A DNA stretch of 64,000 bases, from NCBI GenBank assembly GCA_000433035.1, contig FR890815.1, positions 85,800-149,799 on the forward strand. Direction: 5' to 3'. Below are positions 1,260 to 6,759 of the stretch, one piece after another; position 1 is the first letter of the stretch, and each line of letters starts with the position of its first letter. This DNA comes from Staphylococcus sp. CAG:324 (lineage in GTDB: Bacteria; Bacillota_I; Bacilli_A; ML615J-28; CAG-313). The position numbers and the translations under genes were made by a program. The notes beneath the pieces are model-generated. The model did not search any database. It saw nothing but the letters and a program-made list of their open reading frames with translations, and was not told the origin of the DNA.

Positions 1260-4200
1260 ATGAATAGAAAAAAAATATTAGTATTATTTTTGATGTTATT
1301 TCCATTATTAATAATAAGTTTATCTGCTACGTGGATAATATTAAGTAGAACTATTTTTGCTCCATCATATAATCCAAGTAGTGATAGTATTTTATTTAAT
1401 GCTTATGATAATCAAGAGTCCGTTATTTATAATGGATTAGAACAAGGTCCTACTAGTAAAAATTCAGATATTTTAGATAGTAATATGGATTTTAAATATA
1501 GATTAGCAAATACTAAGAATTTTTATAAAGATGGATTTCCTATAGATGCTGGTACATACGATATATTAATTAAAGATAAAAGTAATACATATCTTGATGA
1601 AGTTGTACAATTTACTATAAACAAAGCGACTCCAAAATTAAATGGATCATTAAATTTATCAAGTATTTATCAAGGTGAAACGCCATTAATAACAAATGAA
1701 GATGAATTATTTGTTTTAGGAGTACAAAATGAAATTTTGTATGGAAATTTTGTTATTGATGTCTCTTCAATTGAGTTTGGGGAATCAACCGAAAGTATAA
1801 AAAGTGTAGATGTTATTGTGAAATATACTCTTACACAAAACAATCAAAAAATCAATTACTATGATGGTTCTTACTCTACTTCTGTAGATGTTAAAGCAGT
1901 ATCTTACATAATAGGTAGTCAAAATAAATATTATGGTACAGTTGAAAGTGCTTTAGATGCTTCAAATAGTGGTGATATTGTAACTGTTATCCCACCAACT
2001 AAAAGTAATTATCATGATACTAATAATTCAATAGTTCCAGATAATATCTCTTATACAATTTATAATAATTGTGAAATAAAAAGTGGTGTAAGTTTAATAA
2101 TTCCTACTGATCAAGATTCTCTAAATAGTGTTACAGACTCTGCCACTTTAAAAACTTTTATTAATAGTATGCAAGTAGATGATAGGTCAAGAGGAAGTAA
2201 TAGTTCTTATAATTTATTTGCTACACAAAATGAAAGTAAATATTTAAGAGTAACAGTAAAAATTGCTGATAATGTAATTTTAAAAAATAATGGAGATTTA
2301 ATAGTTAGTGGATATTTAAGTGGTGGTACAAGTGGTGCATGTACACTTGGTCAAACCTCACATAGTTATTCTAGAATATTACTTGGGAATAATTCTCAAA
2401 TAAGTCAAGAAAATGATAGTGCTAATATATATTGTTATGGTTATATATCTGAACAATCTATAAATAATTCTAGTAAAGTTAATATTGTTAGTGGAAATTT
2501 ATATATTCCTTTTATTGTTGATGATTATAAAGGATTTAGTTTTTCATGGGCAATGACAGATGGAGCAATAAGTGAGGAAAGATGTTCCCCCTTTAATCAA
2601 TTTGAAATGAGAAATATAGATTCACAAGTAAAGATAGGATATAATGCAAAGGTTTATGGGATAACTAATGTTTATGTTACATATTCAACTATGGGTGTTG
2701 ATAAAGTCTTTACACAACAACTTAATATATTGGGAAATGATGAAAGTTTCTTTTTTCAATTAACTGATTCAATTTATTCATCGGTTAATTATAAATTTGA
2801 TAAAAATACATTAGTTGCCAATGCAAAAATTTATGGTGGAATGATTTTAAATAATTTTCAGTTAAAACTTCAAGAATCTATAATAACAGTTGATTTAAGT
2901 ACCACAGAGGCATATTTTCCTCTATCATATAGAATAAATATTGAATTATTTGCTTGCGAAGATCAAACAATTGCCAATTTTGATATTACTAATCAAAGAG
3001 TCAAATTATTGCCTGGTAGTAGTTTAACAATAGGTGATAAATGTTTATTAAAATCTAATGAGTTAATAGTCTATAGTGCTTTTTATGATGGTTCAATTGG
3101 AAATGGTGAAAATAGTGCAATTGGAAGTAGTAAACCATATCCTCTTAAAGAAGGAGCCATATTAAAAGTTTTAAGTGGTGGTAGAATTGAATCTAATTAT
3201 TTAGCTGGAACAGTTTATGGGGATGCTAATGATATTTCATATACAAATGGAAAAATAGTGTCTAAAGAAGCTTGGGTTATGGGTAGTTCAGGTTCAATAA
3301 ATCCTGCTTGGAATATAAAAGATTATCTTGAAATAAAAGAAAAAATAAATATTTATCCATTGGAATACTTAGATACTAAAATAAAACTATATGTTGGAAT
3401 AAATACTTTTACAAATTATAATTCATATTTACCATCTTTTAATATTTTAATAAATGGTGCAAGTGAATCATTTAATATAAGTGAATATCAACAAGTTTTG
3501 GTTTTTGATTCTTTAAATGATTATCAATTTGAGTTTGTTAATAATATTTATAAAGCACACTATGCTTCAAGTTATTATAAAAAGGGACAAATAATTTCTT
3601 ATAATGAAAATAATGCAATTATTGGTGTTATTAATAGCACATTATCTATTTCTAATAATAATAATGGTATCAATGAGTTTGATGTGCAAGAGGTTAATGT
3701 TACTTGTTCTACCCCAACAATAAATGGAAAAATTCCTTTATATATAGGTAAATCAATATTATTAAATGCAGAGGTTATTGATATAAATAAATCATATAAT
3801 AAAACAATTAGTTGGCAAAGTTTAGATACAAGTATTGCAACTGTTGATAATAGTGGCAATGTTACTGGTGTTTCGTTAGGAAAAGTAATCATTCAAGCTA
3901 TTTGTGATGAAGTTATTGGCTCTTTTGAAGTTGAAGTTATAGAAGAAGTAGATGTTGATAATATTGAATCAGTATATATTACAGATGCTAGTGGCAATTC
4001 TTCAGAAAAAGTTCTTGGTCAAAGTACGTTTGGCGGTAGTAATAATGTTGATTATAATGGTAAATATGGAAATAACAAACAAATTGTATTTAGCATAAAT
4101 ATAAATCCAACAACTGCACCATATAGTTCAATAGAGTGGACCTTAAATGCATCAGCTACAGGAAGACAATGGATTAACGATAATACTCAAGCAGTAAATA

Positions 4201-5033
4201 TAGAAAAGAATGTTACATCTATAACTGTTAATACAGGTAGTGGAACTGGAACTAGTGATGATAAGGCAACTTTAAAATGTGTTGTTGTAGGCTTAGATGG
4301 TACTATCTATACTGCTATATTTATTATAAATCACGAAAAAGATACCACTTGTCTTGTTGAAGGAACATTAATTACAATGGCAGATGGTACTCAAAAAAAA
4401 GTTGAAAATTTAGAAATAGGTGATTTACTATTGATTTATAATCATGAAACTGGTGATTGGGATTATGCTCCATTATTAGTAAATGTTCATAATAGTGAAG
4501 AAGAAATTTTAACTAATATAATTAATCTTTATTTTGATGATAATAGTAGTTTACGAATTGTAGGTGAACATGCACTATTTGATATGAATTTAAATAAATA
4601 TGTATATATTAATGAGAGTAATATAATGGAATATATAGGTCATAAATTTGTTGCAACTGAATGCATAAATGGCACAATTGATACAAAAATTATAACATTA
4701 AATAGAGTAGACATAACGAAAGAATTAGTAAGAGTTTATAATCCTGCATCGGTTTGGCATTTAAATTTAGTGGCAAATAATATTTTAACATTATCTGCTG
4801 GTATGGTTAATTTCTTTGATTATGGTGAGAATTTAAAATATGATGAAGAGCTTATGATCAAAGACATACAAAAATATGGACTATATACATATGATGATTT
4901 TAAAGATTATGTATCATTAGAAGTATTTTATGCTTTTCCATTTAAATATTTTAAAGTTGCAGTAGGCAAAGGATTAATTACTTTTGAAGATATATTAATG
5001 TTAATTAATTATTATAATGATTCTATAAATTAA
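1260..5033 (+). CDS. large secreted/surface protein with Big_2-like Ig domain and C-terminal Hint (intein-like) domain
   Basis: 1257 aa. N-terminal signal-anchor. RBS AGGAGG. Big_2-like segment (ISWQSLDTSIATVDNSGNVTGVSLGKVIIQAI). From nt 4350: C-L-V-E-G-T-L-I-T-M-A-D-G (intein block A-like, Cys first). Then GEHALFD (block B-like) and VWHLNLVANNIL (block F/G-like). Confidence 0.7.
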   Translation: MNRKKILVLFLMLFPLLIISLSATWIILSRTIFAPSYNPSSDSILFNAYDNQESVIYNGLEQGPTSKNSDILDSNMDFKYRLANTKNFYKDGFPIDAGTYDILIKDKSNTYLDEVVQFTINKATPKLNGSLNLSSIYQGETPLITNEDELFVLGVQNEILYGNFVIDVSSIEFGESTESIKSVDVIVKYTLTQNNQKINYYDGSYSTSVDVKAVSYIIGSQNKYYGTVESALDASNSGDIVTVIPPTKSNYHDTNNSIVPDNISYTIYNNCEIKSGVSLIIPTDQDSLNSVTDSATLKTFINSMQVDDRSRGSNSSYNLFATQNESKYLRVTVKIADNVILKNNGDLIVSGYLSGGTSGACTLGQTSHSYSRILLGNNSQISQENDSANIYCYGYISEQSINNSSKVNIVSGNLYIPFIVDDYKGFSFSWAMTDGAISEERCSPFNQFEMRNIDSQVKIGYNAKVYGITNVYVTYSTMGVDKVFTQQLNILGNDESFFFQLTDSIYSSVNYKFDKNTLVANAKIYGGMILNNFQLKLQESIITVDLSTTEAYFPLSYRINIELFACEDQTIANFDITNQRVKLLPGSSLTIGDKCLLKSNELIVYSAFYDGSIGNGENSAIGSSKPYPLKEGAILKVLSGGRIESNYLAGTVYGDANDISYTNGKIVSKEAWVMGSSGSINPAWNIKDYLEIKEKINIYPLEYLDTKIKLYVGINTFTNYNSYLPSFNILINGASESFNISEYQQVLVFDSLNDYQFEFVNNIYKAHYASSYYKKGQIISYNENNAIIGVINSTLSISNNNNGINEFDVQEVNVTCSTPTINGKIPLYIGKSILLNAEVIDINKSYNKTISWQSLDTSIATVDNSGNVTGVSLGKVIIQAICDEVIGSFEVEVIEEVDVDNIESVYITDASGNSSEKVLGQSTFGGSNNVDYNGKYGNNKQIVFSININPTTAPYSSIEWTLNASATGRQWINDNTQAVNIEKNVTSITVNTGSGTGTSDDKATLKCVVVGLDGTIYTAIFIINHEKDTTCLVEGTLITMADGTQKKVENLEIGDLLLIYNHETGDWDYAPLLVNVHNSEEEILTNIINLYFDDNSSLRIVGEHALFDMNLNKYVYINESNIMEYIGHKFVATECINGTIDTKIITLNRVDITKELVRVYNPASVWHLNLVANNILTLSAGMVNFFDYGENLKYDEELMIKDIQKYGLYTYDDFKDYVSLEVFYAFPFKYFKVAVGKGLITFEDILMLINYYNDSIN

Positions 5034-5042
5034 TTATTTTTT

Positions 5043-5082
5043 AAAAACTTGATTTCAATTTAATTTTGAAATCAAGTTTTTA
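5043..5082 (+). terminator. rho-independent terminator after the 1257-aa gene
   Basis: Perfect inverted repeat aaaacttgatttcaa / ttgaaatcaagtttt followed by T-run. Confidence 0.7.
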
Positions 5083-5170
5083 TATATAAATAATTTGTTA
5101 TTTTTTACAAAAATACTGAATAAGAATTGATAGTAATCATATAATATGATTCAATAAAGATATTGAAAGG

Positions 5171-6420
5171 ATGATTGAAATGTTAGTTAATTTTAAATTT
5201 AAATCTTTTAAAAAAGAAACTATATTTTCAATGGAAGTTACTACTGACAATAGTTATAAAGACTTAAATACCTTTAGTATTAATAAAAATTTACTTTTAG
5301 GAGATTAGTCCTTAATAAAAAGTGCAATTATTTATGGACCAAATGCTTCTAGTAAATCAAATATTTTAAAAGTCTTAAGGTATATGCAATTTGTTGTTCT
5401 TTATTCTAATTCACCTACTTTTGGCATTATTTAAAATAATGAATATTATACTTTTGATAACGATTCATAGTTTAATGATAGTTTGTATGAAGTTGAATTT
5501 ATAGAAAACAATATCTTTTATAGATATGGATTTATTATTAATAATAGGATAATTATAATAAAAGGTATGAGCGTTTAGTCTGTATATTTAATGGGGATAA
5601 AAATAAAATTAACTTCTATGTCTAAAGATATATCTAATTTAATAGTTCTTCAAAAAAATTTATTATTTATACCAAATTCTATGAGATATAATCTACTAGA
5701 AATTGTTACTAAATCTATTTTAGATAGTATTGCATGGTTTACTAAAGCATTAATTATATTTGAAAATAATATTAGTATGTTTAATATATATGATGAAAAA
5801 AATATAAATATTTAGAAAAGACTTTGGAAATATTAAAAATTGCAGATATAGGAATACAAGATGTTTGTTTACACAAAGAATATTTAGCATCTAATGATGA
5901 TATTAAAAATCGTAAAACTATAAATTTACCATTAGAGCTAAATTTGAAAATTGAAGTAGATAAATTAGAAATTGGTAAGATTGACATAAAAACAGATTTT
6001 AACGTTTATAACAAAGAAAAAGAAGTTATAGAAAAAAGGAAGTATATTTATTAAGAAATTCAAATTTTTATTCAGAAGAAACTAAAAAATTATTTTTATA
6101 TTTGGGATGGATTATAGCAGCTTTAGATCAAAAAAGAGTAATTTTATTGATGAATTTAATACTAAATTTCATTTATTAATTGCTGATACTATTATTAAAA
6201 ACCCTAATAACACTCGATTAGTGACAACTGCCCATAATTTAATGTTATAAATGGCGAGATTAGAAGAAATCAAATATATTTTGCAAGCAAAAATGAATTT
6301 GGTGAAAGTAGTCTTGTATTTTTATCTGATTTTAAAAGTGTTAGAAAAAATGATTTATTTAGTAAAAAGTATCTGTTAGGATTTTATTCTAAACTTCCAA
6401 ATATGAAGGATGATTTTTAA
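5171..6420 (+). pseudogene. degraded AAA-family ATPase gene (AAA_21/AAA_15, Abi/OLD-like); in-frame stop plus frameshifts
   Basis: RBS GAAAGG then M-I-E-M-L-V-N-F-K-F-K-S-F-K. In-frame TAG at 5306, followed in the same frame by Walker A IIYGPNASSKSNILKVL. Later fragments (LVTTAHNLML etc.) lie in other frames. Track ORFs 5591/5781/5824 are pieces of this. Confidence 0.5.
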
Positions 6421-6440
6421 ATAAAAAAGGGAGGGATTTG

Positions 6441-6599
6441 ATGAGAAAAAGTGAAACTTTAAAAGCATTTAATAAGGTATTGATTCTTACTAATGATGAA
6501 GAACAAAAAAAAGTATTTCGCAAGTTTAAAAAAAGACGTCTAATCACCTTACAAAATAAATATATTATGTTTGAAAAAAGTCATCATTTTTCTCCTTAA
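6441..6599 (+). CDS. small basic hypothetical protein (52 aa)
   Basis: ATG preceded by AAAGGGAGGG RBS at 7-nt spacing. Encodes MRKSETLKAFNKVLILTNDEEQKKVFRKFKKRRLITLQNKYIMFEKSHHFSP. No homology recognised. Confidence 0.25.
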   Translation: MRKSETLKAFNKVLILTNDEEQKKVFRKFKKRRLITLQNKYIMFEKSHHFSP

Positions 6600-6670
6600 A
6601 TATGGAATTTGTATCATATAGCTACAATTTATAAATGGATAGAATATTTGAAACTCAATTAAATTAAGAT

Positions 6671-6692
6671 GAGGCCTTATATGGCCTTTTCT
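6671..6692 (+). terminator. short GC hairpin + T-run
   Basis: gaggccttatatggcctttt : aggcc/ggcct stem, then TTTT. Confidence 0.4.
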
Positions 6693-6702
6693 ATAAAAAA
6701 CA

Positions 6703-6736
6703 TTGTCAACTATTAAAATAATAAATAAGTTGACAA
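6703..6736. promoter_or_regulatory. candidate BirA operator (bioO-like palindrome) overlapping birA promoter
   Basis: TTGTCAACT-N16-AGTTGACAA, a perfect 9-bp inverted repeat. The right half contains the TTGACA -35. It sits immediately upstream of birA-bioY. Confidence 0.45.
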
Positions 6737-6759
6737 TAATAGAAAAAAATGATATACTT
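6730..6759 (+). promoter_or_regulatory. sigma-A type promoter of birA-bioY
   Basis: TTGACA (6730-6735), 17-nt spacer, TATACT (6754-6759). Confidence 0.45.

What the first reader, a model, noticed from the sequence alone, without database searches (positions are those of the whole stretch)
4350..5033. Hint (intein-like / BIL) autoproteolytic domain at the C-terminus of a 1257-aa surface protein, followed by a ~65-aa tail
From Cys at nt 4350 the product reads CLVEGTLITMADGTQKKVENLEIGDLLL (intein block-A-like, nucleophilic Cys first). It continues with IVGEHALFD (TxxH-like block B) and VWHLNLVANNILTLSAGMVNF (block F/G-like). Hint domains at C-termini of bacterial secreted proteins (BIL / pre-toxin HINT) release or ligate the downstream C-terminal module. 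Here the cargo is short and novel (FDYGENLKYDEELMIKDIQKYGLYTYDDFKDYVSLEVFYAFPFKYFKVAVGKGLITFEDILMLINYYNDSIN). The neighbouring gene downstream is a decayed AAA ATPase, and there is no obvious immunity gene. This may be a polymorphic-toxin-like or self-processing adhesin.
Basis: partly seen in the sequence, partly recalled or inferred. Interest (0 to 1): 0.7.

Follow-up and report, generated by a model that had tools for sequence, protein, structure and literature searches.

The report
Bacterial Hedgehog-like self-cleaving protein end
A large surface protein of a gut Firmicute ends in a self-cleaving Hint domain that is always fused to a new, strongly conserved 76-residue helical domain; the layout resembles the self-processing end of animal Hedgehog proteins, not a toxin, and about 2,000 bacterial protein families share it.

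Summary

The polymorphic-toxin reading fails. The tail is not a variable cargo. It is a strongly conserved, acidic four-helix domain with no Pfam family and no solved-structure match. A tail profile finds 2,239 protein clusters. In all 127 long listed hits the tail lies at the extreme C-terminus, directly after this Hint. What varies is the upstream part: adhesin-like giants, lipoproteins, and membrane proteins with TIR or HTH domains. No immunity gene and no conserved neighbour were found. The intein terminal Asn and the +1 nucleophile are absent, so splicing and C-terminal cleavage are not expected.

Best reading: a Hog-like cassette (Hint plus accessory domain). It makes a thioester at Thr1030|Cys1031 outside the cell and detaches itself from the cargo. 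I favour, without proof, tail-directed transfer of the cargo's C-terminus to a nucleophile such as cell wall, lipid or ligand. Plain hydrolysis is the main rival.

The parts
1260..5033 (+). Gene for the 1257-aa surface protein (cargo + Hint + tail), TAA stop at 5031-5033
1260..1349 (+). N-terminal basic and hydrophobic segment (MNRKKILVLFLMLFPLLIISLSATWIILS): signal peptide or signal anchor. It ends in the recurrent motif [GSAC]x[STAN]xW[IVL][IVL]
   Evidence: The motif is in 44 of 119 full-length family members, against 8 of 2120 control windows.
1917..3209 (+). About 430-aa cargo domain (aa ~220-650) with no Pfam family, shared by about half of the cassette-bearing proteins
   Evidence: BLASTP of the cargo against 141 family representatives: about 60 hits over aa ~220-650. 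No Pfam hit.
3768..3920 (+). Big_2 bacterial Ig-like domain (aa 837-887)
   Evidence: Pfam PF02368, E 1.3e-8
4347..4352 (+). Predicted scissile/acyl-shift junction Thr1030|Cys1031. The -1 residue is small in relatives; Cys is invariant.
   Evidence: Cys in 84/84 and 127/127. The -1 residue is S/G/T/A, or S/G/N/T in the larger set. Homology to the Pumilibacter protein starts exactly here.
4350..4802 (+). Hint-fold autoprocessing domain, aa 1031-1181. Includes block-B His1104 (nt 4569-4571), Asp1108, the family-specific G1127-H1128-x-F1130, and the F/G-like WHLNLVANNILTLS. No terminal Asn.
4803..5030 (+). Conserved acidic four-helix C-terminal domain ('tail', aa 1182-1257). Motifs: NxF[ED]Y, DIxxYGLYTY[ED][DE]F and KV[AS][VI]GKG[LY]IT.

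Best explanation
The last 227 residues form a two-domain, Hedgehog-'Hog'-like self-processing cassette: a Hint domain plus an obligate accessory domain. It is exported to the outside of the membrane together with its cargo.

Step 1 (inferred from the fold and the invariant residues). Cys1031, helped by His1104, attacks the Thr1030 carbonyl in an N-to-S acyl shift. The cargo's C-terminus becomes a thioester.

Step 2 (follows from the sequence). There is no terminal Asn and no +1 Cys/Ser/Thr, so there is no splicing and no C-terminal cleavage. The only outcome is resolution of the thioester. This frees the 1030-aa cargo from a 227-aa Hint+tail fragment in a single turnover.

Step 3 (my preferred reading, unproven). 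The conserved helical tail packs against the Hint and acts like the sterol/adduct-recognition region of Hog proteins. It selects or positions the attacking nucleophile, so the cargo's C-terminus becomes covalently joined to something: peptidoglycan or lipid II amine, a membrane lipid, or a ligand at the distal tip of an N-terminally anchored adhesin. Plain hydrolysis would be the alternative.

The cassette behaves like a generic C-terminal module, added to many unrelated extracytoplasmic cargos.

The confidence of 0.45 is for the whole chain including step 3. Steps 1 and 2 alone I put at about 0.8.
For: Fold and catalytic residues:
- AF2 pLDDT 93.5, pTM 0.89.
- Cys1 is present in 84/84 and 127/127 sequences; His1104 in 86/86; Asp1108 in 79/86. 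The -1 residue is small and the linker before it is S/G-rich.

No splicing:
- The positions aligned to the BIL2 'HN' are hydrophobic plus P/T/S/A.
- The closest tail-less Hint relatives (P0316-P0320) keep '...ANGLLSGN', or '...ANGVICGN' in P0319, and have only 10-25 further residues. P0315 is also tail-less but ends '...ANGILTSC' plus about 40 residues.

Obligate pairing:
- The tail profile finds 2,239 clusters, 1,956 of them at E<=1e-10, always at the extreme C-terminus.
- All 127 long hits have this Hint 0-12 aa upstream, with a median of 4 residues after the tail.
- All 38 loci with an untruncated gene show the same layout.
- The pTM of 0.89 for the two-domain model suggests a fixed Hint-tail arrangement.

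Variable cargo, conserved cassette:
- Homology to the Pumilibacter muris protein begins at the Cys.
- Cargos include beta-rich giants up to 4,131 aa, lipobox lipoproteins with only about 35 aa before the Cys, TIR+TPR+LRR proteins with three TM segments, and an HTH_3 protein with a TM segment.

Extracytoplasmic location:
- An N-terminal signal or anchor is the only hydrophobic segment in 82 of 121 proteins; seven others have only internal hydrophobic segments, four of them exactly three.

Other points:
- No conserved partner gene was found, which fits self-sufficiency.
- The organism makes peptidoglycan: FtsW/RodA and MurG lie in the window. No LPXTG was found in the large surface proteins of the window.
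- Precedents for step 3: in Hedgehog, Hint plus a helical SRR of about 70-100 aa couples cleavage to cholesterol ligation at a Hint-SRR interface (PMC7906309; PMC2362128).
Against: - No biochemical data exist, so cleavage itself is inferred.
- The window protein's own Pfam Hint scores are below the gathering cut-off.
- The Thr of TxxH is I/V here. The Hedgehog Asp46, needed for sterol transfer, has no clearly conserved counterpart: the region around aa 1075-1080 is variable.
- The tail has no sequence or fold similarity to the SRR. It is a compact, acidic domain (median net charge -8.5, GRAVY -0.28), not a membrane-seeking amphipathic helix pair. A lipid adduct is therefore not favoured.
- I could not inspect model coordinates, so proximity of conserved tail residues to Cys1031 is untested.
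- Many cargos are already membrane-anchored at the N-terminus, so the benefit of a second anchor is unclear.
- Only the best 150 of 2,239 tail hits were examined.
Confidence: 0.45

Rival explanations
1. Hydrolytic self-removal only. The Hint makes the thioester and water resolves it. The cassette is a removable C-terminal pro-domain, acting as a folding or export aid or as a maturation or shedding switch. The tail merely stabilises or regulates the Hint, for example by gating cleavage by redox state or by a ligand. It would be comparable in logic to the SEA/GAIN/SEAL autoproteolytic domains of surface proteins.
For: - The fold and active-site evidence is the same as for the best explanation.
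- Isolated Hint and BIL domains are known to undergo simple N-terminal cleavage (review PMC5874633).
- No adduct-related gene lies nearby.
- The Hedgehog transfer residue Asp46 is not conserved.
- About half of one sample carries a second Cys at aa 1169/1170, near the position of the Hedgehog Cys143 that disulfide-bonds to Cys1. This hints at redox gating in a subset.
- HTH-TM and TIR-TM cargos resemble signalling proteins in which an extracellular autoproteolysis could be a regulatory step (compare bacterial SEAL and GAIN domains in the titles).
Against: - It does not explain why a 76-aa domain is more strongly conserved than the Hint itself and is never lost in more than 170 examined members.
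- The nearest tail-less Hints manage with a short peptide.
- Cleavage at the extreme C-terminus releases only the cassette, not the cargo. That gives no obvious shedding function for N-terminally anchored proteins.
Confidence: 0.33
2. Polymorphic-toxin or pre-toxin HINT system. The Hint releases the C-terminal tail as a small toxin or effector, and immunity is encoded nearby.
For: - A Hint domain lies near the C-terminus of a large secreted protein.
- The tail has no known family.
- 2 of 86 relatives give weak PF07591 hits.
Against: - The tail is invariant in kind across 2,239 clusters, while the N-terminal part varies.
- No alternative C-terminal cassettes follow this Hint.
- There is no terminal Asn for C-terminal release.
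- No downstream ORF of 80 aa or more lies in the next 1.7 kb, and no downstream neighbour is conserved across lineages.
- No second copy or orphan cassette is in the window.
- The cassette is absent from the plasmid and phage collections.
Confidence: 0.02
3. Catalytically dead Hint, used only as a structural or binding module together with the tail, for example as a cell-surface docking unit.
For: - The Pfam score in the window protein is below threshold.
- The TxxH Thr is replaced by I/V.
- The Hint-like AXH fold serves as a binding module elsewhere; weak AXH hits appear.
Against: Absolute conservation of the nucleophilic Cys at position 1 (211 of 211 sequences that reach it) and of the block-B His, together with a small -1 residue, is hard to explain without chemistry at that bond.
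Confidence: 0.05
4. A canonical (mini-)intein or mobile intein remnant inserted in the gene.
For: Mini-inteins are among the best structural matches.
Against: - There is no C-extein, no terminal Asn, no +1 nucleophile and no homing endonuclease.
- The host proteins are unrelated to each other, so there is no conserved insertion site.
- The domain always sits at the protein's end with the same tail.
Confidence: 0.01

Closest known systems
Hog domain of Hedgehog and Hedgehog-related proteins (Hint + sterol/adduct-recognition region, SRR/ARR)
   Same: - C-terminal position on a secreted protein whose N-terminal cargo varies between families.
- Cys at position 1 and a block-B His, with no terminal Asn.
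- The Hint is followed directly by a helical accessory region of about 70-100 aa that ends the protein.
- PF01079 (the Hedgehog-type Hint model) is the best Pfam hit for the family, with 50 of 86 members.
   Different: - Bacterial (Clostridia and Bacilli of animal guts).
- The tail has no detectable similarity to the SRR: PF01079 aligns only to positions 10-92 of 213. The tail is a compact acidic four-helix domain, not a membrane-binding helix-loop-helix.
- The -1 residue is S/G/N/T, not an invariant Gly.
- The TxxH Thr is I/V, and no clear Asp46 equivalent exists.
- The adduct, if any, is unknown.
Bacterial intein-like (BIL) domains, including C. thermocellum BIL (2lwy) and the Tetrahymena BUBL BIL2 domain (6tmm/6y75)
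   Same: - Non-intein Hint domains in variable secreted or surface proteins that self-cleave rather than splice.
   Different: - The BILs described in the literature lie inside variable regions with other sequence downstream. The examples seen here (BIL2, and the sister subfamily P0316-P0320) keep a terminal Asn.
- This family has lost the terminal Asn, is always terminal, and is always fused to one specific accessory domain.
Pre-toxin HINT (PF07591) of polymorphic toxin systems
   Same: A Hint fold near the C-terminus of large exported bacterial proteins.
   Different: In those systems the N-terminal part is conserved and the C-terminal toxin is swapped, with immunity genes downstream. Here the C-terminal module is constant, the N-terminal part varies, and there is no immunity gene.
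C-terminal sorting or processing modules (LPXTG/sortase, T9SS CTD) and autoproteolytic surface domains (SEA, GAIN, SEAL): functional analogies only
   Same: - One conserved C-terminal module is shared by hundreds of unrelated extracytoplasmic cargos.
- Sortase also works through a thioester at the cargo's new C-terminus. This last point is from my own knowledge.
   Different: - No homology.
- Here the thioester-forming Cys belongs to the substrate itself (single turnover).
- No dedicated enzyme gene is linked.
- Anchoring is hypothetical.

Membership tests
Hint superfamily (Hedgehog/intein fold) | Horseshoe-like all-beta Hint fold | tested here: met
Hint superfamily (Hedgehog/intein fold) | Nucleophile (Cys/Ser/Thr) as first residue, block-A motif | tested here: met
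   Cys1031, conserved in 84/84 and 127/127. The block-A-like CxxxGTLITLADG is conserved.
Hint superfamily (Hedgehog/intein fold) | Block-B TxxH motif | tested here: inconclusive
   His1104 is invariant in 86/86, but the Thr position is I58/V23.
Hint superfamily (Hedgehog/intein fold) | Curated Pfam model above gathering score | tested here: not met
   Window protein: PF01079 17-19 bits against 29.7; PF13403 16-17 against 28.4. At family level, 50 of 86 members hit PF01079 at E<=0.01, best 8.3e-9.
Hint superfamily (Hedgehog/intein fold) | Autocatalytic cleavage at the N-terminal junction | not testable with these tools
   Needs expression of the C-terminal ~330 aa with C1031A and H1104A controls.
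Inteins (protein splicing elements) | C-terminal Asn (block G) followed by a +1 Cys/Ser/Thr of a C-extein | tested here: not met
   Positions aligned to the BIL2 'HN' are L1178 and S1179. In the family these are hydrophobic and P41/T18/S16/A8. No conserved nucleophile follows.
Inteins (protein splicing elements) | Insertion in a conserved site of a host protein that is intact without it | tested here: not met
   The upstream parts of homologs are unrelated. Homology starts at the Cys and runs to the stop codon.
Hog domain (Hedgehog-type Hint + SRR/ARR) | Hint directly followed by a C-terminal accessory region that ends a secreted protein | tested here: met
   Gap between Hint and tail is 0-12 aa, with a median of 4 aa after the tail. 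N-terminal signal or anchor present.
Hog domain (Hedgehog-type Hint + SRR/ARR) | Accessory region homologous to the SRR/ARR | tested here: not met
Hog domain (Hedgehog-type Hint + SRR/ARR) | Gly-Cys junction and the Asp46 general base used for sterol transfer | tested here: not met
   The -1 residue is Thr here and S50/G25/N12/T8 in the family. The region around residue 46 (aa 1075-1080) is variable and gapped. The residue mapping is by sequence only, not checked in 3D.
Hog domain (Hedgehog-type Hint + SRR/ARR) | Transfer of the cargo to an adduct nucleophile | not testable with these tools
   Needs mass spectrometry of the processed cargo.
Polymorphic toxin with pre-toxin HINT | PT-HINT (PF07591) signature | tested here: not met
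   No hit for the window protein at E<=1. 2 of 86 relatives hit at E<=0.01.
Polymorphic toxin with pre-toxin HINT | Diverse, exchangeable C-terminal toxin domains after a conserved N-terminal part | tested here: not met
   The same tail is present in 127/127, in 45 of 45 untruncated subfamily hits and in all loci. The N-terminal parts vary.
Polymorphic toxin with pre-toxin HINT | Immunity gene immediately downstream | tested here: not met
   No ORF of 80 aa or more in nt 5034-6748. No downstream family is shared across lineages.
Bacterial intein-like (BIL) domains | Hint domain in variable regions of secreted bacterial proteins, self-cleaving | tested here: inconclusive

The most novel reading that the evidence does not exclude
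The Hint+tail cassette is a self-contained, sortase-independent protein-ligation device of gut Firmicutes. The Hint converts the cargo's last peptide bond into a thioester outside the cell. The new helical domain delivers a specific nucleophile: a peptidoglycan or lipid II amine, an envelope glycolipid or polymer, or a host or dietary ligand at the tip of an N-terminally anchored adhesin. The cargo becomes covalently attached while the cassette leaves. That would make it a bacterial mechanistic counterpart, and possibly an evolutionary relative, of Hedgehog cholesterolysis. It would also be a new natural single-turnover ligation chemistry.
Probability: 0.3. Interest if true: 0.85.

Novelty: new variant of a known kind. 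Interest (0 to 1): 0.62.

Why it matters
Hint domains are known as inteins, as Hedgehog/Hog processing domains, as BIL domains and as pre-toxin HINT domains. An obligate fusion of a Hint to a dedicated accessory domain, which couples cleavage to ligation, is so far described only in eukaryotic Hog proteins.

This is a large bacterial family: about 2,000 clusters at 50% identity. It occurs in human, rodent, rabbit and pika gut samples, and one cultured member exists, Pumilibacter muris. It has the same two-part logic as Hog but an unrelated accessory domain that no domain library holds.

If the tail directs transfer, the cassette would be a new way for Gram-positive bacteria to attach surface proteins covalently. 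It would also be a new tool for protein ligation and a lead on the origin of Hog-type processing. If it only hydrolyses, it is still an unannotated, widespread autoprocessing module. Recognising it would correct the annotation of thousands of 'hypothetical' giant surface proteins.

Tried and rejected
- Polymorphic toxin: rejected, see the rival explanations.
- Alternative genetic code (TGA=Trp): rejected. The stop is TAA, TGA ends 5 long ORFs, and reading with table 4 gives only small extensions.
- Second copies or orphan tail cassettes in the window: none.
- Conserved gene neighbourhood: 41 loci were clustered. Only a lineage-specific synteny appears (lipoprotein, then a ~226-aa protein, then the cassette gene, then further genes and BirA). 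Nothing is shared across lineages.
- 'Decayed AAA ATPase' downstream: ORF fragments give no Pfam hit. The genes that occupy this position in syntenic relatives (149-aa, 356-aa and 475-aa proteins) leave no tblastn trace there.
- The afdb50 fold library was unavailable, so I could not ask whether the tail fold occurs elsewhere in AlphaFold DB.
It was replaced by a degenerate DNA pattern for DIEKYGLYTYE.
- Plasmid and phage collections: no match.
- Source names for 10 large members: none on record.
- Literature searches found no description of this architecture. Absence from an open-access library is weak evidence.
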